Of a DNA stretch of 64,000 nucleotides, positions 1 to 59,567 are shown piece by piece. Source of the DNA: Eledone cirrhosa (taxonomy: Eukaryota); contig OZ024749.1 of NCBI GenBank assembly GCA_964016885.1, positions 15,128,001 through 15,192,000 of the forward strand. Direction: 5' to 3'. The notes beneath the pieces were generated by a model that was not told where the DNA came from, made no database searches, and saw only the letters and a program-made list of their open reading frames with translations. The position numbers and the translations under genes are program-made. Numbering within the stretch: position 1 is the first letter of the stretch; the number at the start of each line of letters is the position of its first letter.

Positions 1-486
1 TTAACACTTAACATTTAATATTCTACCATACTATTTCCTTCTAATACCTTTATAAATTTTAAAGGATTGTAAATAAAACGAGTAAATCAGACAAAGTTTG
101 AATTCCTTTTATTAATATAATCTTCTATACACAATCATACACACCCGTGTATATTTATCTATCTATATATATATATATATATATATGGCATAGACATTAC
201 GATACAATGAGAGGAAACATAGTAGTACCAGTGATGATGTCACAGGTATGCGATGAAAGAACTTTGATAGACTATTTATATATTTATATCTATAGTTTTA
301 ATCGTGATATATTTTTAATCAATGATAACCATTGATTACCAAATAAATTAATTATGGAGATATAAAAGATACAGAAGCGAAAAACAATCCAAACCAAACA
401 GTGTGTTCTGTTATTATTTTTGGCAATATTATAACAATATGATCCTCCCCAAATATAAAAACATATATATATATAATCATATATAT

Positions 487-13096: not shown

Positions 13097-13167
13097 TATT
13101 TTATTATGCGCATTTCAAAAACAAATATCATCATGCAATAATATTTGTGTTTTCATCAGATAAAACA
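13097..13167 (-). ncRNA. Type I hammerhead ribozyme motif
   Basis: Minus strand reads tgttttat-CTGATGA-(16-bp stem II, one mismatch)-GAAAT-GCGC-ATA-ataaaata; stems I and II pair and stem III is palindromic. Confidence 0.75.
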
Positions 13168-26600: not shown

Positions 26601-27074
26601 GTGGTTGGCATTAGGAAGGGCATCAAGCTGTAGAAATCTAGCCAGAAACAGTTCTGTATGAGCAAGACATTGTCACCTGGCCCAACTTACCTCTAATGGG
26701 ACAGTCCATCTAACCCATGCAAGCATGGAAAATGGATGTTAAATGGTGATGATGATGATGATGAAGCCACAGACATGACAAACACACACAGACAGATGCA
26801 GGCAGAAACATATGAGTAACAAAGTTTGTGTTAGTATAACATACCTTTATCTATAATAAAATAAACAAACATATATATCTAACCCATGCTAGCATGGAAG
26901 ATGGATGTTAAATGATGATGATGATGATGATGATGATGTGTACAGTAAACATGTTAACAAATCGGGATTACATATACAACACACCAATCAGTGGTGCAAT
27001 TAGATGTAAGCACTCAAAATCATGTGTTTTCTTCCAAATACAATTGGTTAGTCCATGACAGTATATCTAAAATA

Positions 27075-27428
27075 AAGATAATTGTGAAGGTCCAATGTAG
27101 ATGTTCAAAATGCTGTTATTCATAAAGCTGTGATACATATTTCAATGATGTTTATGACTAGGTGTTGCTTCAATCACACAACCAGTAACACAACATTATC
27201 AGACAACACCTTATGCAATAAGGTTATGTTGTCAATGTAACATAAGCTAAAGACAATGGAATGGTCCTGACAATGTAACCTTATTACACAAGATTCTGTC
27301 TGATGATGTAGTGTAAGTGGGTGTGTTATCAAATCACCCTGTAGCCATGAATGCCATTGAAATATGTATCACAGATTTAGGAATAAAGAAATTTTGAACA
27401 TCTACATTGAACCTCCACAACTATCCTT
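27075..27428. repeat. Old diverged inverted repeat (fold-back/MITE-like)
   Basis: caatgtagatgttcaaaat/attttgaacatctacattg, tgtgatacatatttcaatg/cattgaaatatgtatcaca and further nested complementary blocks around about 27250. Confidence 0.7.
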
Positions 27429-27815
27429 AGTGTGAATTTCATATATTTAAAGATATATATATCCTACCCATGCATTCCTGACTGTTTAATATCCTATTAC
27501 ACCTATATTTTGTGATATCTTTGCCATATTATGCTATATATGCTTAATATCTTTGTTCTCTTTACCATATTATTCTGTATATGCCTAATACCTCTGCATT
27601 CTTACTGTCTATATGCCTAATGCACCATTAATGTCCTGCTTTACGAGTAACTTTCTTTTATAATTCTTTTATAATCTTTATTATACCCATTGCTACTGAC
27701 CTCAACATCCTCACTCTCTTTGAATATAACACTATTGATAGCAACAATAATATCAACGTATCTTTATGATTGTTCTGTAGAATAGGAATTTAATTATATG
27801 TTTAAGCTTTGCCAA

Positions 27816-33842: not shown

Positions 33843-35463
33843 ACCAGGAAGAGGCACCACTGATGCCCTCTTCCTTGTGAGGCAATTACAGGAAAAGTAC
33901 CTAGCTAAAAGTAAGCCACTCTACTTGGCATTTGTCGACCTTGAGAAAGCCTTTGACAGAGTTCCACGTGCTGTAATCTGGTGGGCTCTTAGAAAACTAG
34001 GAGTAGATGAATGGCTTGTGAAAGCGGTACAAGCCATGTATAGGGGAGCAGTCAGCAAAGTTAGGATTAGCAATGAGTATAGCGAGGAATTTAGCGTACA
34101 GGTTGGGGTCCACCAGGGCTCTGTTCTTAGCCCTCTCCTGTTCATCATAGTCCTGCAGGCAATAACGGAGGAGTTTAAGACCGGATGCCCATGGGAACTC
34201 CTGTATGCTGATGACCTCGCACTCATAGCTGAATCTATGGTAGAACTAGAGAATAAATTCCAAACTTGGAAGCAGGGACTAGAAAGAAAGGATCTCAAAG
34301 TCAACATGACAAAGACTAAGGTCCTTGTAAGTAGACGAGAAAACAGAACCCAGATCCCCTCAGGGAAATGGCCTTGCTCAGTATGTAGGAAAGGTGTAGG
34401 TAGGAACTCCATTCTCTGCCCCAAATGCAAACAAAGGGTACACAAGAGATGTAGCGGGATCTCAGGAAGCTTAATTAAGAATGTAGGATTCACATGCAGC
34501 AGCTGTGCTGAGACAGCAAGCAGCAAACAGCCACAGGAAACAAGTACCACCAATCTCTGGGAGGGCTCTGTAGAAACAGTAGACAGCTTCTGCTACCTAG
34601 GTGACCAAATTAGCAGCAGAGGTGGGTGTTCAGAAAGTACAATAACTAGGGTAAGAACGGGATGGAAGAAGTTTAGGGAACTACTACCACTGCTAGCTGC
34701 AAAAGGCTTCTCCCTCAGAATGAAAGGCAGACTGTATGATGCGTGTATCCGAACAGCGATGTTGCATGGTAGTGAGACCTGGGCGCTGAAGGTGGAAGAC
34801 TTACGGAGATTAGAGAGAAACGAAGCCTGCATGCTCCGATGGATGTGTAACAGTAATATACGTGAACGACAAAGCATAAATGAATTGAGCGAGAGACTGA
34901 GCATAAGAGGAATCAAATGCTGTGTGCAGGAGTGGCGGTTGCGCTGGTATGGACATGTGATGCGTATGAAGGATGACAGCTGCATAAAAAGGTGCAGAGC
35001 ACTAGAAGTTGATGGAAACCGCGGAGTGAGGAGACCCAAGATGACCTGGGATGAGGTGATAAAAGCCGACCTTACCCAATTACACCTCTCAAAGACAATG
35101 ACACACGACCGTGACTTCTGGCGTCACGTATTGATACAGAGTACCCGACCTCCCATGGGTACAAGCTGAAGCATATAGACAATATGCCCCCACACCCCCC
35201 ACCGCAAGGTGGTCGTGGAGGTGCCACGGCAAAAAAGCACCCAGCTCACACTGTAAAGTGGACGTGTAGGCGCCACGAAAAAGCACCCAACACTCACTGT
35301 AAATGAGGTTGGTGTTAGGAAGGGCATCCAGCTGTAGAAATCAAGCCAAATCAGTTCCTGTATGAGCAAGGCATGGTCAGCCGACCAGACACTGCCCACA
35401 ACAGGACAACCCGCCTAACCCATGCTAGCGTGGAAGAACGGACGTAAAATGGTGATGATGATG
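33843..35463 (+). pseudogene. 5'-truncated RTE LINE (subfamily A), frame still open
   Basis: Protein nearly identical to the C-terminal part of the 54041-57160 ORF; same 3' UTR and (ATG)n tail. Confidence 0.93.
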
Positions 35464-35787
35464 ATATATACATACATACATATACATACATATATATACA
35501 TACATACATATATATATATACATATATACATACATATATATACATATATACATACATATATATACATATATATACATATATACATACATATATATATATA
35601 CATATATATACATACATATATATATATACATATATACACATATATATATGTACATATATATACATACATATATACACATACATATATGTATATATATATA
35701 ACCAAATGTTAAACAATGAATAATCAATGAATATAGTTTTACAACAGATTAAAAGCACTCTACAAGAAAGTTTTCTGGAGTTATTAA

Positions 35788-36068
35788 TATTATTCAAAAT
35801 ATTAAATGGATACATTCACATAATCAAAATATATGTTTTATTATATATATTTCGGAGGTACTGTGCTGTTTTTTCAGTACGTCCTCATCAGATAAAATAC
35901 ATAAATTGATGTATGACATACCTCAACTGTGCTGATGGTTCAATTCCAGTCTTGGCAGTCTTTTATCTGATGAGGACGTACTGAAAAAACAGCACAGTAC
36001 CTCCAAAATATATATATAATAAAACATATATTTTGATTATGTGAATGTATCCATTTATTAATATTTTG

Positions 36069-36075
<7 letters not shown>
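35788..36075. mobile_element. Inverted pair of hammerhead-containing pLTR-like arms
   Basis: About 110-bp arms; minus-strand ribozyme motif 35836-35897 intact (ttttat-CTGATGA-stem-GAAAT-ATAT-ATA-ataaaa); plus copy 35961-36024 has GAAA changed to AAAA. Confidence 0.7.
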
Positions 36076-36104
<29 letters not shown>

Positions 36105-48903: not shown

Positions 48904-49148
48904 ATATCACAGAAAAAAAGAGAATCAGTGTTGCGACGAATGGAATTTATTGGACATATTACAATCGTTTCTCTGATGACCAGTTTGAGACACGAACGAT
49001 GTGATGATCGAATCCGACTCTGAAAATCGCAAGTCCTCAGATACGTCTTGATTCTACGAAGCAGATTTTCCTATAGGAAAATCTGCTTCGTAATATCTCC
49101 AATAAATTCCATTCGTCGCAACACTGATTCTCTTTTTTTCTGTGATAT
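48904..49148 (-). mobile_element. Inverted-repeat element with hammerhead-like motif (48953-49047)
   Basis: 57-bp outer inverted arms, an inner palindrome at about 49054-49092, and minus-strand gacgtat-CTGAGGA...GAAAC-GATT-GTA-atatgtc then AATAAA. Confidence 0.55.
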
Positions 49149-49466
49149 ATATATATATATATATTTATATATAAATTAATAAAAATAATGAATAAAAACA
49201 AAGAAACAGTTCCTTATATTAAAAAATTCATCATTTTACAATCGTTTCTAGGATATATATGTTTGTGTTGGTATGTATATCATATAGATCTATGTAAAAT
49301 TATTACAAACTATCAGAGGGAATATACATACCTACACATATATATATGCTATCTTCAGAAATAATTTTTGAATACAACTTCTCTTTTCATGATATTCGGA
49401 TGACATTGAGTTCTTCATACGGATTGGACACTACCGTACATTTTGGTAGATTTATCTACATATATT

Positions 49467-50855: not shown

Positions 50856-50938
50856 CAAGAAAGTAAGTGTTGGTAAAATCCAGTACTTCAGTATGTGGAT
50901 AGGGAGCACTCAACGAAGATATAAGTTCCGGAGTTATA

Positions 50939-51253
50939 ATAGTGACGAAACATAAGTCAATTGCATGAACTCATAATCCTTTATTTACTGCTATATATAT
51001 TTCGATGATAGCCATTGAATGGCTATGACCTCATCAGGCAGTTAGTCAGTTCTTAGATATGCCAGCTCTGTGTGTATAGTGTTGATGGTATATGTCCCAA
51101 GGCTCTGATACCATCAACACTATAAACACAGAGCTGGCATATCTAAGAACTGACTAACTGCCTGATGAGGTCATAGCCATTCAATGGCTATCATCGAAAT
51201 ATATATAGCAGTAAATAAAGGATTATGAGTTCATGCAATTGACTTATGTTTCG

Positions 51254-51260
<7 letters not shown>
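50939..51260. mobile_element. Near-perfect 153-bp-arm fold-back carrying two intact hammerhead motifs
   Basis: Plus motif 51157-51212 actgc-CTGATGA-ggtcatagccat-tca-atggctatcatc-GAAAT-ATAT-ATA-gcagt then AATAAA; mirror motif 50987-51042; 16-nt spacer. Confidence 0.8.
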
Positions 51261-51318
<58 letters not shown>

Positions 51319-53164: not shown

Positions 53165-53722
53165 ATAAAATATTAAAAAAATAATGAATAAAACAATGAA
53201 ACAGTTCCTTATATTAAACAAAAAAAGTTCATTATTTAACGATCGTTTCTGGGATATATATGTGTTAGAATTGGCATGTATATTTAACAGATCTATGTAC
53301 AAAATTATACAAAATTATACAAACTATCAAAATTAAATATACATACCTACTCATATATATGCCGTCTTCAGAAATAATGATTATTTCTGAAGACGGCATA
53401 TATATGAGTTGGTATGTATATTTAATTTTGATAGTTTGTATAATTTTGTATAATTTTGTACATAGATCTGTTAAATATACATGCCAATTCTAACATATAT
53501 ATCCCAGAAACGATCGTTAAATAATGAACTTTTTTTGTTTAATATAAGGAACTGTTTCATTGTTTTATTCATTATTTTTTTAATATTTTATCTTGACTCT
53601 GTATTCCGTTTATCTTTCACCGAAAGTGATTTTTCATTGCATCTCTTTCCATGATATCCGGATTACATTGAGTTCTTCATACGGATTGGACACTACCGTA
53701 AACTCTTGGTAGATTTATCTAC
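53165..53722. mobile_element. Fold-back element (arms about 210 bp) with long-stem-II hammerhead motifs plus unique tail
   Basis: Inverted repeat 53165-53591; CTGAAGA at 53387, GAAAC-GATC-GTT-aaataat at 53507-53525; paralogs at 58987-59515 and 49177-49460. Confidence 0.7.
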
Positions 53723-54040
53723 ATATATATATATATCATCATCATCATCATCATCACCGTTTTACGTCCGTTCTTCCACGCTAGCATGGGTTAGACGGGT
53801 TGTCCTGTTGTGGGCAGTGTCTGGTCGGCTGACCATGCCTTGCTCATACAGGAACTGATCTGGCTTGATTTCTACAGCTGGATGCCCTTCCTAACACCAA
53901 CCTCATTTACAGTGAGTGCTGGGTGCTTTTTCGTGGCGCCTACACGTCCACTTTACAGTGTGGGCTGGGTGCTTTTTTGCCGTGGCACCTCCACGACCAC
54001 CTTGCGGTGGGGGGGGGGGGGGGCATATTGTTTATATGCT

Positions 54041-57000
54041 TCAGCATGTACCCATGGGAGGTCGGGTACCCTGTATTACTGCGTGACGCCAGAAGTCACG
54101 GTCGTGTGTCATTGACTTTGAGAGGTGTAGTTGGGTAAGGTCGGCTTTTATCACCTCATCCCAAGTCATCTTGGGTCTCCCCACTCCGCGGTTTCCATCA
54201 ACTTCTAGTGCTCTGCACCTTTTTATGCAGCTGTCATCCTTCATACGCATCACATGTCCATACCAGCGTAACCGCCTCTCCTGCACGCAGCATTTGATTC
54301 CTCTTATGCTCAGTCTCTCTCTCAATTCATTTATGCTTTGTCGTTCACGTATATTACTGTTACACATCCATCGGAGCATGCAGGCTTCGTTTCTCTCTAA
54401 TCTACGTAAGTCTTCCACCTTCAGCGCCCAGGTCTCACTACCATGCAACATCGCTGTTCGGATACACGCATCATACAGTCTGCCTTTCATTCTGAGGGAG
54501 AAGCCTTTTGCAGCTAGCAGTGGTAGTAGTTCCCTAAACTTCTTCCATCCCGTTCTTACCCTAGTTATTGTACTTTCTGAGCACCCACCTCCGTTGCTAA
54601 TTCGGTCACCTAGGTAGCAGAAGCTGTCTACTGTTTCTACAGGGCCCTCCCAGAGATTGGTGGTACTTGTTTCCTGTGGCTGTTTGCTTGCTGTTTCAGC
54701 ACAGCTGCTGCATGTGAATCCTACATTCTTAATTAAGCTTCCTGAGATCCCGCTACATCTCTTGTGTACCCATTGTTTGCATTTGGGGCAAAGAATGGAG
54801 TTCCTACCTACACCTTTCCTACATACTGAGCAAGGCCATTTCCCTGAGGGGATCTGGGTTCTGTTTTCTCGTCTACTTATAAGGACCTTAGTCTTTGTCA
54901 TGTTGACTTTGAGGCCCTTTCTCTCTAGTCCCTGCTTCCAGGTTTGGAATTTATTCTCTAGTTCTACCATAGATTCAGCTATGAGTGCGAGGTCATCAGC
55001 ATACAGGAGTTCCCATGGGCATCCGGTCTTAAACTCCTCCGTTATTGCCTGCAGGACTATGATGAACAGGAGAGGGCTAAGAACAGAGCCCTGGTGGACC
55101 CCAACCTGTACGCTAAATTCCTCGCTATACTCATTGCCAATCCTAACTTTGCTGACTGCTCCCCTATACATGGCTTGTACCGCTTTCACAAGCCATTCAT
55201 CTACTCCTAGTTTTCTAAGAGCCCACCAGATTACTGCACGTGGAACTCTGTCAAAGGCTTTCTCAAGGTCGACAAATGCCAAGTAGAGTGGCTTACTTTT
55301 AGCTAGGTACTTTTCCTGTAATTGCCTCACAAGGAAGAGCGCATCAGTGGTGCCTTTCCCTGGAACAAACCCAAATTGCATCTCGTCTATATTCACCCGG
55401 TCCCTAATCAGCTGTGCTATAACTCTTTCTGTTACTTTCATGACCTGGTCCATCAACTTTATACCTCTATAGTTTCCTCTATCTAGTGCATCGCCTTTAC
55501 CTTTGTAGCAGTTGACAATGATGCTACTGCACCAATCTTTTGGTATGGCCCCCTCTAGTATTACCTGGTTAACGATACGTGTGGTTATAGTGTGACCTAC
55601 AGACCCAGATGCCTTCAGCATCTCGGCAGCTATACCCGATGGACCGGTTGCCTTCCCTATCTTCATATCTCTGATTGCCTTACTTACTACGCTGCCGCTG
55701 ACTTGTACTGCTGGTCCCTCTATAGGGTCTACGTGGGGTAGGGTCTCTTCTTCCCATGCATTCTCCTCATTTAGTAATCTATCATAATGACTCTTCCATG
55801 CATCTTTCTTCTCAGCACTTGTGAGGGCAAGCTCACCTTTATCATTCCGGATACACTTCTCTCCAATGACATCACAACTATCTCTGACACACTGCCTCGC
55901 AATCTTGAATACCTCCTGTTTCTGGTCCTCACGTTGTAAAACATGCTTGAATTTTCTATCCTCTGCTTCCCTCCTAGCTAAGTATACTTGTCGCCTAGCT
56001 TCCCTCTTGGTCTCTATGTAATGTACCCTGCTCCCCCCGTTCTTCCATTCTTTCCATGCCTGTCTCTTGGCCTTGACTGCTTCATCTACCTTATTGTTCC
56101 ACCACCAAGTCACTCTCCTCCTGCTTGAGGTCTTACTCCAGCCACAAACCTCATCCGTCGCCTCTAGTAAGTTATTTTTTAGGAACTCCCAGTTCTCTTC
56201 TACGTTAAATGTCTCTATCTGTTCTTCTTTACTGTCGTAGGCGTTGAGTAAAATATCTTTAAATCTGTTACTGGTTGAGGGGACTTTCAGCTTCCAGATC
56301 TTTCTTCTCCAGGTTGGCCTCTGTTTCAGGGCTCGTCTAGTTCTGACCGTGAGGTCGCTGACAACTAAGCTATGTTGGGATGTACATTCCTCACTAGGGA
56401 AGGCTTTTGTGTTTACGACCGTCCATCTGTCACGTCCTCTGATGAGGATAAAATCTAACTGACTAGAGTGCTCCCCTGATCTATAGGTGATCAGGTGGTT
56501 GTCGGGTTTTTTAAAGTTTGTGTTACATATCGACATGTCATTGGCGTCGCAGAATTCTAGAAGTCTGAATCCTTCCTCATTCCTTGTGCCAACTCCATGG
56601 CCTCCATGTACTCTATTGAAGCCGTCGCAGTGTTTACCTACGTGTCCGTTAAAATCTCCTGCAATGATTAGGAAGTCCTTGTCGTCTGTTAGAGCAGTAG
56701 TGTGTATTAGGGACTCGTAAAACCTATCCTTAAGTTCGTCTGGCAGCCCCGATTGGGGTGCGTAAGCTGATATTATTGTGGTAATTGTCTTATTCAGGAC
56801 TAGTCTGAGTTTAATGATTCTTGCATTTACCCTGTACACTGAGATTACTTTATCTACCCACTTGTCAGCTAATAGTATACCTACACCACCCATCCCATCG
56901 TCATTTCCCACCCAGAAAAATTTGTAGCACTGGCTTTTTCCTACAAGGACTCTAGCAGACCCTCCTCTCCATCTAGTCTCTTGCACACAGCATACATCAA

Positions 57001-57160
57001 CTTCCTTTCGCTCTAGCATTTCTACGATTTCTCCTGCTCTTCCTTTCATTGAGCCTACATTGATGGTACCAACTCGGAGTTTTGGGCATTTGTCGACACT
57101 CGTAGGGGAGGGTCTCTGGGTTGGCGCTTCACGTGGGTGCTTGGTAGCTCGCAGATTCAT
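54041..57160 (-). CDS. RTE-clade APE endonuclease / reverse transcriptase with internal PHD-like finger
   Basis: 1039 aa; GTINVGS, QETRW, AYAPQ, GDFNGHVG, LDFIL, SQH; YRGIKL, KAFDRV, HQGSVLSP, YADD; RRLRWYGHV...GRPK. Confidence 0.95.
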   Translation of the reverse strand: MNLRATKHPREAPTQRPSPTSVDKCPKLRVGTINVGSMKGRAGEIVEMLERKEVDVCCVQETRWRGGSARVLVGKSQCYKFFWVGNDDGMGGVGILLADKWVDKVISVYRVNARIIKLRLVLNKTITTIISAYAPQSGLPDELKDRFYESLIHTTALTDDKDFLIIAGDFNGHVGKHCDGFNRVHGGHGVGTRNEEGFRLLEFCDANDMSICNTNFKKPDNHLITYRSGEHSSQLDFILIRGRDRWTVVNTKAFPSEECTSQHSLVVSDLTVRTRRALKQRPTWRRKIWKLKVPSTSNRFKDILLNAYDSKEEQIETFNVEENWEFLKNNLLEATDEVCGWSKTSSRRRVTWWWNNKVDEAVKAKRQAWKEWKNGGSRVHYIETKREARRQVYLARREAEDRKFKHVLQREDQKQEVFKIARQCVRDSCDVIGEKCIRNDKGELALTSAEKKDAWKSHYDRLLNEENAWEEETLPHVDPIEGPAVQVSGSVVSKAIRDMKIGKATGPSGIAAEMLKASGSVGHTITTRIVNQVILEGAIPKDWCSSIIVNCYKGKGDALDRGNYRGIKLMDQVMKVTERVIAQLIRDRVNIDEMQFGFVPGKGTTDALFLVRQLQEKYLAKSKPLYLAFVDLEKAFDRVPRAVIWWALRKLGVDEWLVKAVQAMYRGAVSKVRIGNEYSEEFSVQVGVHQGSVLSPLLFIIVLQAITEEFKTGCPWELLYADDLALIAESMVELENKFQTWKQGLERKGLKVNMTKTKVLISRRENRTQIPSGKWPCSVCRKGVGRNSILCPKCKQWVHKRCSGISGSLIKNVGFTCSSCAETASKQPQETSTTNLWEGPVETVDSFCYLGDRISNGGGCSESTITRVRTGWKKFRELLPLLAAKGFSLRMKGRLYDACIRTAMLHGSETWALKVEDLRRLERNEACMLRWMCNSNIRERQSINELRERLSIRGIKCCVQERRLRWYGHVMRMKDDSCIKRCRALEVDGNRGVGRPKMTWDEVIKADLTQLHLSKSMTHDRDFWRHAVIQGTRPPMGTC

Positions 57161-57405
57161 ATTTCATCTATTGATTCAGAGTTGCTCGTGTATTCCCAGC
57201 TCATCCATCCCTAACGGTGGGAAAATTGAGGGCTAGAAGGACAGTGGTGGTGGGGTAATGGCAGGGTGTGTTGGGATGCGCCAGAGGAGGAGAGAGTTAG
57301 TTAGGCAGGTAGTAGCAGCAGCAGCAGTGGAAATGGCATGCTAGGTTTGATTGGTCGAATAGACTATGGTGGTGTGTGGGGGTGGGGGGGAGGGAAATTG
57401 TGAGG

Positions 57406-58793
57406 TAGGAACTGAGGGTCGCATGGTAAATATCCAAGTTAATACTACATCAGTAAAATTAACAATAATAACGTCATGAAAAAAGCTACTAAGAGAAACC
57501 CTCGAAAATTTATCGCTAATACAGCAGGGAAAATTTAACGCTAATACAGCAGGGAACATCATAATATTAACGACATGAAAAAGCTACTAAGAGAAACCCT
57601 CGAAAATTTATCGCTAATACAGCAGGGAAAATTTAACGCTAATACAGCAGGGAACATCATAATATTGACGACAATATGTAGGCTAAAATACCTTCGTAGA
57701 TTAGGTGGATGGCTGGCTGGGAAAATTTGAATCAGCTCAGTGGTACATTTTAGCAGAGAAGAATGGCAAAGTGTCTTATCTCTTCAATATTTTCAGATTG
57801 AATGAATTAGGTTAAAGACAGGGTAGTAAGCCTTAAAGAAGTGCATAGAGGGGGGGGGGGGGGGGGTAGGAACTGAGGGTCGCATGGTAAATAACTGAGA
57901 GAGATACAATAGGATTAGAATACCGCATGGTAAATATCCAAGTTAATAAGTTAATACTACATCAGTAAAATTAACAATAATAACGTCATGAAAAAAGCTA
58001 CTAAGAGAAACCCTCGAAAATTTATCGCTAATACAGCAGGGAAAATTTAACGCTAATACAGCAGGGAACATCATAATATTAACGACATGAAAAAGCTACT
58101 AAGAGAAACCCTCGAAAATTTATCGCTAATACAGCAGGGAAAATTTAACGCTAATACAGCAGGGAACATCATAATATTAACGACATGAAAAAGCTACTAA
58201 GAGAAACCCTCGAAAATTTATCGCTAATACAGCAGGGAAAATTTAACGCTAATACAGCAGGGAACATCATAATATTGACGACAATATGTAGGCTAAAATA
58301 CCTTCGTAGATTAGGTGGATGGCTGGCTGGGAAAATTTGAATCAGCTCAGTGGTACATTTTAGCAGAGAAGAATGGCAAAGTGTCTTATCTCTTCAATAT
58401 TTTCAGATTGAATGAATTAGGTTAAAGACAGGGTAGTAAGCCTTAAAGAAGTGCATAGAGGGGGGGGGGGGGTAGGAACTGAGGGTCGCATGGTAAATAA
58501 CTGAGAGAGATACAATAGGATTAGAATACCGCATGGTAAATATCCAAGTTAATAAGTTAATACTACATCAGTAAAATTAACAATAATAACGTCATGAAAA
58601 AAGCTACTAAGAGAAACCCTCGAAAATTTATCGCTAATACAGCAGGGAAAATTTAACGCTAATACAGCAGGGAACATCATAATATTAACGACATGAAAAA
58701 GCTACTAAGAGAAACCCTCGAAAATTTATCGCTAATACAGCAGGGAAAATTTAACGCTAATACAGCAGGGAACATCATAATATTAACGACATG
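57406..58793. repeat. Nested tandem repeat: about 606-bp units containing 2-3 copies of a 98-99-bp monomer
   Basis: gtaggaactgagggtcgcatggtaaat at about 57406, 57866 and 58472; monomer catgaaaaagctactaagagaaaccctcg... Confidence 0.9.
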
Positions 58794-58810
58794 TATATAT
58801 ATTCATGTAC

Positions 58811-58841
<31 letters not shown>

Positions 58842-58962
58842 CTAAAATAACAGATTAAAGTTTAAGCAAAGAATCGTTGCTTTCACTCTTAACAGGATCT
58901 TCTGAAACTAAAAAAAATCAATCTGTGAACGCAGAAGTAAATATTTCGAAAAACGTTACACA

Positions 58963-58986
<24 letters not shown>

Positions 58987-58995
<9 letters not shown>

Positions 58996-59512
58996 TAAAC
59001 AAATAATGAACAAACAATTCCTTATATTAAACAAAAAAAGTTCACTATTTAACGATCGTTTCTAGGGCATATATGTGTTATAATTGGTATGCATATTTAA
59101 CAGATCTATGTACAAAATTATACAAAATTATACAAATTATCAAGATTAAATATACATACCTAACTCATATATACGCCGTCTTCAGAAGACGGCGTATATA
59201 TGAGTTAGGTATGTATATTTAATCTTGATAATTTGTATAATTTTGTATAATTTTGTACATAGATCTGTTAAATATGCATACCAATTATAACACATATATG
59301 CCCTAGAAACGATCGTTAAATAGTGAACTTTTTTTGTTTAATATAAGGAATTGTTTGTTCATTATTTGTTTAATATTTTATCTTGACTCTGTATACCGTT
59401 TATCTTTCACCGAAATTGGATTTTCATTACATCTCTTCTTTCCATGATATCCGGAATACATTGAGTTCTTCATACGGATTGGACACTACCGTAAACTCTT
59501 GGTAGATTTATC

Positions 59513-59515
<3 letters not shown>
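58987..59515. mobile_element. Second copy of the fold-back hammerhead element (almost spacerless palindrome centred at about 59184)
   Basis: Inverted repeat 58987-59381 plus the same tail as 53592-53722. Confidence 0.7.

Positions 59516-59567
<52 letters not shown>

What the first reader, a model, noticed from the sequence alone, without database searches (positions are those of the whole stretch)
53165..59515. Fold-back copies whose two arms share copy-private mutations, with an unusually long hammerhead stem II
Seen: the copies at 53165-53722 and 58987-59515 differ from each other (aataaaacaatgaaacagttcc versus aacaaacaattcc), yet within each copy left and right arms carry the same variant. 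The fold-back point also differs between copies. A third copy (49177-49460) has one arm only. About 113 nt separate CTGAAGA and GAAAC and can pair as a long stem II; the minus-strand motif of copy 1 has a 9-bp stem I (tcattattt/aaataatga). Inference: the palindrome is rebuilt at each insertion (self-primed or template-switch synthesis starting near the ribozyme) or homogenised by arm-to-arm conversion.
Basis: partly seen in the sequence, partly recalled or inferred. Interest (0 to 1): 0.7.

Follow-up and report, generated by a model that had tools for sequence, protein, structure and literature searches.

The report
Mirror-image Penelope retroelement stubs
These fold-back sequences are short leftovers of a known kind of jumping gene (a Penelope-like element) present in thousands of copies; their matching arms carry family variants rather than private ones, and each mirror image was likely built at insertion from two separate DNA copies of one RNA, joined head to head.

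Summary
The palindromes are real, but the shared variants are not copy-private: they mark lineages of a family with at least 6,840 copies. In 58 fold-backs only 5 of 321 arm-shared variants were private, and copy 1's own mutations sit on one arm only, so conversion is not supported. Longer copies lead to an 810-aa RT–endonuclease ORF with Hydra-clade Penelope motifs. Inverted 5'-truncated copies with a one-sided tail in (TA)n are published Penelope features, and this scan noted similar stubs on other DNA of this genome. What is added: outer ends are fixed (+206, +341), centres vary (31 junctions in 41), 9 of 73 fold-backs have non-overlapping arms, and the tail-less arm is the longer one 18 to 3. 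This favours two cDNAs started at two fixed sites over the published self-priming idea. Short arms begin sharply 7 nt before the hammerhead core, often after an extra G (172 vs 52), suggesting run-off from a capped RNA end; yet 0 of 70 ORF-linked copies begin there. The hammerhead's 113–116-nt stem II is real and far longer than published Hydra examples; cleavage is untested and its genomic trace inconclusive.

The parts
53165..53380 (-). Copy 1, tail-less arm: element positions -9 to +206 (0 = C of CTGAAGA), inverted, abutting (TA)n
53380..53723 (+). Copy 1, tail-bearing arm: positions -7 to +341, abutting (TA)n
53380..53525 (+). Type I hammerhead motif, 7-bp stem I, core at 53387, 113-nt stem II span, palindromic stem III, predicted cut after GUU at 53518
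   Evidence: activity untested
53229..53380 (-). Second hammerhead motif on the inverted arm, 9-bp stem I, 115-nt stem II span
   Evidence: activity untested
53592..53723 (+). One-sided 135-nt 'tail' between the two fixed 3' ends (+206 and +341)
53615..53625 (+). Small hairpin motif 24 nt after the first fixed end; a near-copy lies 16 nt after the second fixed end in ORF-linked copies
   Evidence: role inferred
58987..59184 (-). Copy 2, tail-less arm (-2 to +206), perfect 197-bp mirror of the other arm
59185..59516 (+). Copy 2, tail-bearing arm (about +2 to +341); different lineage from copy 1; no intact hammerhead
49175..49365 (-). Copy 3, tail-less arm from -7, older divergent lineage (78% to the reference copy)
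49364..49460 (+). Copy 3, sense piece holding only +244 to +341; does not overlap the inverted arm

Best explanation
These are 5'-truncated terminal-repeat stubs of a Penelope-like retroelement with Hydra-clade protein motifs, and each mirror image was likely made at insertion from two separately primed cDNAs joined head to head. Shown: family size, link to an RT-endonuclease ORF, (TA)n targets, two fixed 3' ends (+206 and +341) that are internal in full-length copies, variable junctions, lineage-matched arms. Inferred: the element's endonuclease cuts both strands of a TA repeat; one end primes reverse transcription at +206, the other at +341, usually on the same RNA; each cDNA runs toward the RNA 5' end; the +206 cDNA usually finishes, the +341 cDNA is more often cut short; the two 3' ends are joined by 1-9 nt microhomology or a template jump with added bases. 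Inferred, weaker: the common stop at -7 is the capped 5' end of a transcript that starts at the 5' edge of the hammerhead, the extra G being the copied cap; long partial-tandem copies come from other (read-through or circular) RNAs. Arms look alike because they are copied from one RNA; afterwards they diverge independently.
For: Family: 6,840 exact matches to a 35-nt tail pattern; 2,121 exact +206/(TA)n junctions for one pattern; 299 places where +341 runs on into a 5' UTR and an ORF. Protein P0001 shows RWR, DKT, YRDD, CxCX5C, YIG, CxxC and CxH, the Hydra signature in PMC8557442. Fold-backs: 71 of 73 have one arm ending at +338..341, and in 69 of 73 the other ends at +198..209. Both ends also occur alone: 5 of 30 loci sampled by the +206 end are short solo copies. 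Arms do not overlap in 9 of 73; of 25 unequal or internal junctions the tail-less arm reaches further in 18, the tail arm in 3, and 4 are symmetric. In 7 of 30 loci with an arm starting at +134 that arm is tail-less yet its partner, starting at +145/146, bears the tail, so the partner cannot be a copy of it. Two fold-backs (L010, L020) have arms carrying alleles of different lineages. In vitro, a Penelope/Poseidon protein cuts and extends both strands and starts at two internal sites that bound the tail (PMC11167929). 5' ends: 24 of 46 short arms in the tail-sampled set start exactly at -7; of 1,845 arms lacking the templated base there, 172 have G at -8 after a purine versus 52 with G at -9. 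Raw reads of two runs show opposite-strand joints at -7 and (TA)n loose ends at both fixed ends.
Against: 0 of 70 ORF-linked terminal repeats start near -7 (55 run on upstream, 15 are truncated elsewhere), so -7 is not the 5' end of the templates of long copies; no RNA run was available to show a start there. Four fold-backs are symmetric at internal positions, which a hairpin would also give. Deletion after insertion could shorten one arm and mimic non-overlap. The extra G is a minority (172 of 1,845 unambiguous) and could be a terminal-transferase preference. The loci were sampled by several different patterns, and some may be counted twice. The in vitro precedent is from another clade and did not show head-to-head joining.
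Confidence: 0.6

Rival explanations
1. Self-priming: one cDNA (or an antisense RNA) folds back, copies itself, and the endonuclease trims one arm at +206; unequal arms come from later deletion at the unstable centre.
For: Published proposal for Penelope inverted junctions (PMC3846280 Discussion); arms match in lineage in most fold-backs; 4 symmetric internal centres; many centres are near-symmetric at -7.
Against: 9 of 73 non-overlapping pairs and an 18:3 bias toward the tail-less arm; solo copies ending at +206; 7 loci where the tail-bearing partner cannot derive from the arm that primed; perfect centres with no loop (6 of 41 junctions); mixed-lineage arms.
Confidence: 0.22
2. A palindromic master is copied whole and each copy's centre is then remodelled.
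For: Fixed outer ends; a few junctions recur (up to 4 of 41); L010 and L020 share a junction.
Against: Fold-backs occur in all lineages with centres from +174 to several kb upstream, including inside the ORF; +341 is internal in full-length copies; solo copies of either end exist.
Confidence: 0.08
3. Arms are homogenised after insertion by arm-to-arm gene conversion.
For: 5 shared alleles were private within 242 arms; copy 2 is a perfect palindrome.
Against: 316 of 321 shared alleles occur in other copies; 55 arm differences in 9,860 columns, at least 28 private to one arm; older lineages show up to 9 arm differences; copy 1's private changes are one-sided.
Confidence: 0.05
4. The palindromes are assembly or library artefacts.
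For: Long perfect palindromes beside (TA)n are hard to assemble; the window's own three copies were not checked against reads.
Against: Arms differ by point changes, outer ends are fixed at two positions, and independent raw reads and contigs show opposite-strand joints at the same base (few reads: 4 + 4 + 2).
Confidence: 0.02

Closest known systems
Hydra-clade Penelope-like elements (Craig et al. 2021, PMC8557442; passages and supplement part 2 seen; includes Hydra-1_Obim and Penelope-13_HM, the latter listed with a 5'-truncated inverted copy)
   Same: C-terminal endonuclease, DKT, CxCX5C linker, CxxC and CxH, (TA)n targets, sense hammerhead near the 3' end, often with U at the cleavage position, inverted 5'-truncated partner.
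   Different: Unit of 6.0-6.9 kb against 'generally <3 kb'; stem II span 113-116 nt against stems of 3-7 bp with short loops in the published Hydra list; tail 135 nt against 30-40; about 110 extra N/T/K-rich residues after the RT. By eye not the same family as Hydra-1_Obim.
Penelope elements of Adineta vaga (Arkhipova et al. 2013, PMC3846280; passages and Discussion read)
   Same: Head-to-head inverted pLTR, optional one-sided tail, palindromic junctions, N-rich insert in the ORF.
   Different: Explained there by self-priming on an antisense template; the arm geometry here favours two sense-templated cDNAs.
PAc (Poseidon, Anolis) in vitro system (Frangieh et al. 2024, PMC11167929; parts 1-2 of 4 read, all results)
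   Same: Two internal reverse-transcription starts that bound the tail, AT-rich targets, both strands cut and extended.
   Different: Starts lie in the ORF there and upstream of the 5' UTR here; no head-to-head product or 5' run-off site was reported in the parts read.
Minimal type I hammerheads of metazoan PLEs (Cervera and de la Pena 2014, PMC4209133; passages)
   Same: Core, palindromic short helix III suited to dimer cleavage, opposite-strand pairs 100-700 bp apart, proposed circular templates for tandem copies.
   Different: Helix II there is 6-8 bp; here about 30-35 predicted pairs over 113-116 nt.
LINE-1 twin priming (recalled, no call)
   Same: Two target ends prime two cDNAs on one RNA and give an inversion.
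   Different: In LINE-1 the second start is random and arms barely overlap; here both starts are fixed and arms usually overlap fully, giving a palindrome.

Membership tests
Endonuclease-bearing Penelope-like element | Single ORF with RT and C-terminal GIY-YIG-type endonuclease linked to the repeat | tested here: met
   ORF follows the tail in L154, L164 and precedes the repeat in L170; RT and YIG motifs aligned with homologues. Pfam gave no significant hit, so this rests on motifs.
Endonuclease-bearing Penelope-like element | Partial tandem and inverted pseudo-LTR structures with a one-sided tail | tested here: met
Hydra clade | DKT motif, CxCX5C linker, CxxC and CxH around the conserved E and N | tested here: met
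   P0001 against the description
Hydra clade | RWK motif | tested here: inconclusive
   RWR in P0001 and two homologues, RWK in five
Hydra clade | CCHH motif absent from the endonuclease | tested here: inconclusive
   P0001 has two cysteines before YIG, but they are not conserved in the 7 aligned homologues; judged by eye
Hydra clade | Insertion into (TA)n | tested here: met
   flanks listed
Hydra clade | Canonical hammerhead in the repeat | tested here: inconclusive
   Core, stems I and III present in 62 distinct motifs, cleavage position U in 42 and A in 20, never G or C; stem II far outside the published size range
Hydra clade | Generally shorter than 3 kb (typical, not diagnostic) | tested here: not met
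   tandem spacing 6.0-6.9 kb
Hydra clade | Phylogenetic placement with published Hydra RTs | not tested
   published reference proteins were seen only in a supplement and compared by eye
Active type I hammerhead ribozyme | Self-cleavage after the NUH triplet | not testable with these tools
   Genomic 5' ends at +134: 41 (12 explained by stem I microhomology) against 14 at +130, 38 at +140, 15 in stem II: no sharp peak. The active fold is 4-5 kcal/mol above the minimum as a monomer.
Retrozyme (non-coding tandem hammerhead repeat) | No ORF; short tandem units bounded by hammerheads | tested here: not met
   stubs are ends of an ORF-bearing element

The most novel reading that the evidence does not exclude
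This family shows how Penelope-like elements build their inverted ends: a capped transcript starting exactly at the 5' edge of the hammerhead is reverse-transcribed twice, from two hairpin-marked start sites on opposite target strands, and the two run-off cDNAs (cap G included) are joined head to head, while full-length tandem copies come from a separate read-through or circular RNA pool processed by a hammerhead with a 115-nt stem II.
Probability: 0.3. Interest if true: 0.65.

Novelty: new member of a known kind. Interest (0 to 1): 0.38.

Why it matters
The structure itself is a published Penelope hallmark, so the headline (private mutations, conversion) falls. The value is mechanistic: how Penelope-like elements form inverted repeats is named as open in PMC8557442, and this young family with thousands of copies gives base-exact predictions (starts at +206 and +341, RNA 5' end at -7, extra G, two template pools) that argue against the published self-priming model and can be tested directly. 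The long-stem-II hammerhead would be missed by the short-spacer descriptors described in that paper's methods, so other 'ribozyme-less' elements may hide similar motifs.

Tried and rejected
The repeat finder was swamped by microsatellites. Rfam: no hammerhead among the 150 of 312 matches listed; only sub-threshold miRNA hits on hairpins and simple repeats. Pfam and PDB sequence searches of P0001 gave nothing significant. No RNA holder was listed among public runs, so expression, the -7 start and cleavage could not be examined; this is no evidence either way. A cleavage signature looked promising in ORF-linked copies (5 of 15 truncations within +124..+147, p 0.004 for a window chosen after seeing the data) but genome-wide end counts show no sharp peak at +134: inconclusive. 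Stem II covariation is weak: of 36 predicted pairs in 32 sequences only 1 has a two-sided change, most changes are one-sided to G-U, and the consensus fold pairs the core rather than stem I. A splice acceptor at the 5' edge of stem I, as in D. virilis Penelope, was considered; there is no AG before -7. Literature searches for twin priming in Penelope, a cap G in Penelope (0 papers), long hammerhead stem II ('long' meant 6 bp) and post-2022 head-to-head models found no prior account; the library lacks most subscription papers, including earlier Penelope structure papers that I know only as citations. The search of earlier findings by sequence returned nothing. No alignment or tree with published Hydra proteins was made.
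Full report
Coordinates below are relative to the C of the hammerhead core CTGAAGA (= 0) in the element's sense orientation; in copy 1 this is window 53387.

Observation. The palindromes are in the sequence. Copy 1's arms match at 211 positions with one mismatch and one 2-nt gap; copy 2 has a perfect 197-bp arm pair around 59184; their left arms differ by 12 substitutions and 3 gaps. The spacer between CTGAAGA and GAAAC is 113 nt on the plus and 115 nt on the minus strand of copy 1, with 7-bp and 9-bp stem I. Copy 3 is an inverted arm joined to the last ~100 nt of the tail, not a single arm.

The variants are lineage variants. A genome search with copy 1's right arm returned 40 top-scored places at 99% or more (40 of 945 candidates scored). 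An exact 35-nt tail pattern has 6,840 matches. I compared both arms in 58 of 73 fold-backs (those with at least 60 overlapping columns; substitutions only) against 242 arms: 9,860 columns, 55 arm differences (at least 28 private to one arm), 321 arm-shared non-reference alleles, of which 5 were seen in no more than the two arms (de-duplication by flanks is imperfect, so some loci may be counted twice). All 12 shared alleles of copy 2 occur elsewhere and L086 is identical over the compared columns. Fourteen variable sites sort the arms into several lineages, with copies 1, 2 and 3 in three different ones. Copy 1's private changes are one-sided. So arms agree because they come from the same source, and then drift apart; conversion is not needed.

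What the element is. Many copies run on upstream. Twenty longer stretches showed multi-kb inverted arms and ORFs. In L154 and L164 the tail end (+341) continues directly into about 150 nt of 5' UTR and an ORF; this junction occurs 299 times, often at 6.0-6.9-kb tandem spacing. The L170 protein (P0001, 810 aa from the first Met) has RWR, DKT, YRDD, CxCX5C, YIG, CxxC and CxH, conserved in homologues, which is the Hydra-clade description of Craig et al. 2021 (PMC8557442, passages). Its supplement lists Hydra-1_Obim, (TA)n targets and an inverted copy on Penelope-13_HM. By eye P0001 is of that kind but not that family; no tree was built. The nearest named homologue is from Argonauta hians; I did not pursue the host. 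Inverted 5'-truncated copies, a one-sided tail and microsatellite targets are standard for these elements, and self-priming on an antisense template has been proposed (PMC3846280 Discussion).

Geometry. Of 73 fold-backs (from L001-L150, L171-L200 and window copies 2 and 3; L151-L170 left out), 71 have an arm ending at +338..341 and 69 have the other ending at +198..209. One pattern alone finds 2,121 junctions of +206 with (TA)n, and 5 of the 30 such loci fetched are short solo copies, so +206 is an end in its own right. Among the 90 tail-sampled loci 37 are short fold-backs. Junctions are diverse: 31 in 41, 6 of them perfect palindromes without a loop, several with repeated copies of the first 10-20 nt. 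Nine of 73 have arms that do not overlap. Of 25 unequal or internal junctions, the tail-less arm reaches further in 18, the tail arm in 3, 4 are symmetric (one search gave p = 0.004 for an earlier count of 16 to 3; the loci were sampled by different patterns). In 7 of 30 loci with an arm starting at +134, that arm is tail-less and is joined by A-tract microhomology to a tail-bearing arm starting at +145/146. L010 and L020 pair a reference-type tail arm with a tail-less arm carrying alleles of another lineage. A single cDNA copying itself cannot produce these without later deletion or conversion. Frangieh et al. 2024 (PMC11167929, parts 1-2 read) showed that a Penelope protein cuts and extends both target strands and starts at two internal sites bounding the tail. 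Joining two such cDNAs head to head explains fixed outer ends, variable centres, solo copies of either end, and non-overlap. This step is inferred.

The stop at -7. In the tail-sampled set, 24 of 46 short arms that include the core start exactly at -7 (33 more run on upstream). Genome-wide 1,845 arms lack the templated bases at -8 to -10; 172 of them have G at -8 after a purine, which the opposite arm cannot template, against 52 with G at -9. An extra G at the 5' end of retrocopies is, from memory, the mark of a reverse-transcribed cap, and the -7 A sits in a context resembling an initiator as I recall it (not tested). Against this: none of 70 ORF-linked repeats starts near -7; 55 run on upstream and 15 are truncated elsewhere (some belong to the same tandem array). 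So stubs and long copies would come from different RNA pools, for example a transcript starting at -7 whose 5'-proximal start sites are used, and read-through or circular RNAs as proposed in PMC4209133. An AATAAA hexamer lies 16-21 nt before the core and could end the first kind of transcript; untested. No RNA run was listed.

Hairpin lead. Earlier findings of this scan described similar stubs elsewhere in this genome and a small hairpin behind both ends. Here an 11-nt hairpin motif lies 24 nt after +206 and a near-copy 16 nt after +341; these are its only two sense occurrences in L154 and L164, and it is conserved in most copies. Its role is inferred. My two-start reading was recorded before that call.

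Hammerhead. 62 distinct motifs had spacers of 82-129 nt, mostly 114-116; the cleavage position is U in 42 and A in 20. The region folds with z = -6.0, but the active topology costs 4-5 kcal/mol as a monomer and covariation is weak, 1 of 36 pairs two-sided. Stem III is palindromic, as in dimer-cleaving PLE motifs. Published Hydra motifs have 3-7-bp stem II, and my searches found no comparable length (passages, 75, 78). Ends at +134 number 41, 12 explained by stem I microhomology, against 14, 38 and 15 at three control positions: no clear trace of cleavage. Copy 2 lacks an intact motif.

Reads. Two raw RAD-seq runs with the species label of the best holder, and two contig sets, were laid on L154:1-900. 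Opposite-strand joints at places 37/38 (= -7) appear in 4, 4 and 2 reads and in both contig sets; (TA)n loose ends follow +206 (425 and 437 reads) and the tail end (595 and 534 reads). This supports the family's structure, not the three window copies themselves.

Verdict. A new, large family of a known kind. Interest 0.38.

Noticed in passing
window 50935-51265, 35787-36076, 27073-27429, 48904-49148, and a motif at 13159 (-): Other, unrelated fold-backs beside (TA)n; hammerhead-like motifs with 27-52-nt stem II spans were found at 51162/51037, 35891, 27300 and 13159. Probably stubs of other Penelope-like families.
   Followed up: no
window 54043-57163 (-), with 97-98% similar pieces at 33844-35200: An open 1,040-codon frame that looks like a LINE (endonuclease plus RT, likely RTE type; recalled) lies between copies 1 and 2 and is not part of the element.
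   Followed up: no
window 57400-58790: Nested tandem duplication of ~74-nt and ~550-nt units just upstream of copy 2 (seen).
   Followed up: no
L170:3620-6103 (P0001 residues ~500-600): About 110 extra N/T/K-rich residues between RT and endonuclease relative to ~700-aa homologues, recalling the N-rich inserts of Adineta Penelope elements.
   Followed up: partly
L003, L034, L056 and others, junctions: Junctions hold repeated copies of the element's first 10-20 nt, some each preceded by G, as if the enzyme jumped back to the RNA 5' end several times.
   Followed up: partly
L273, L274, L279, L281, L287, L290, L293, L296, L298, L299: Recurrent junction in which the arm ending at -7/-9 is joined to +134 through the stem I complementarity of the hammerhead itself; 12 of 41 genome-wide matches.
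   Followed up: partly
L154:2764-6400, L170:6100-9500: The element carries about 3.4 kb of 3' sequence full of (TA)n and (TG)n-like repeats that is conserved between copies, so it spreads microsatellites that are also its own target.
   Followed up: no
G000:C1:126844083-126857494, G000:C2:170426625-170438771: Head-to-tail arrays of three units at 6.0-6.9-kb spacing; candidate sources of read-through transcripts.
   Followed up: no
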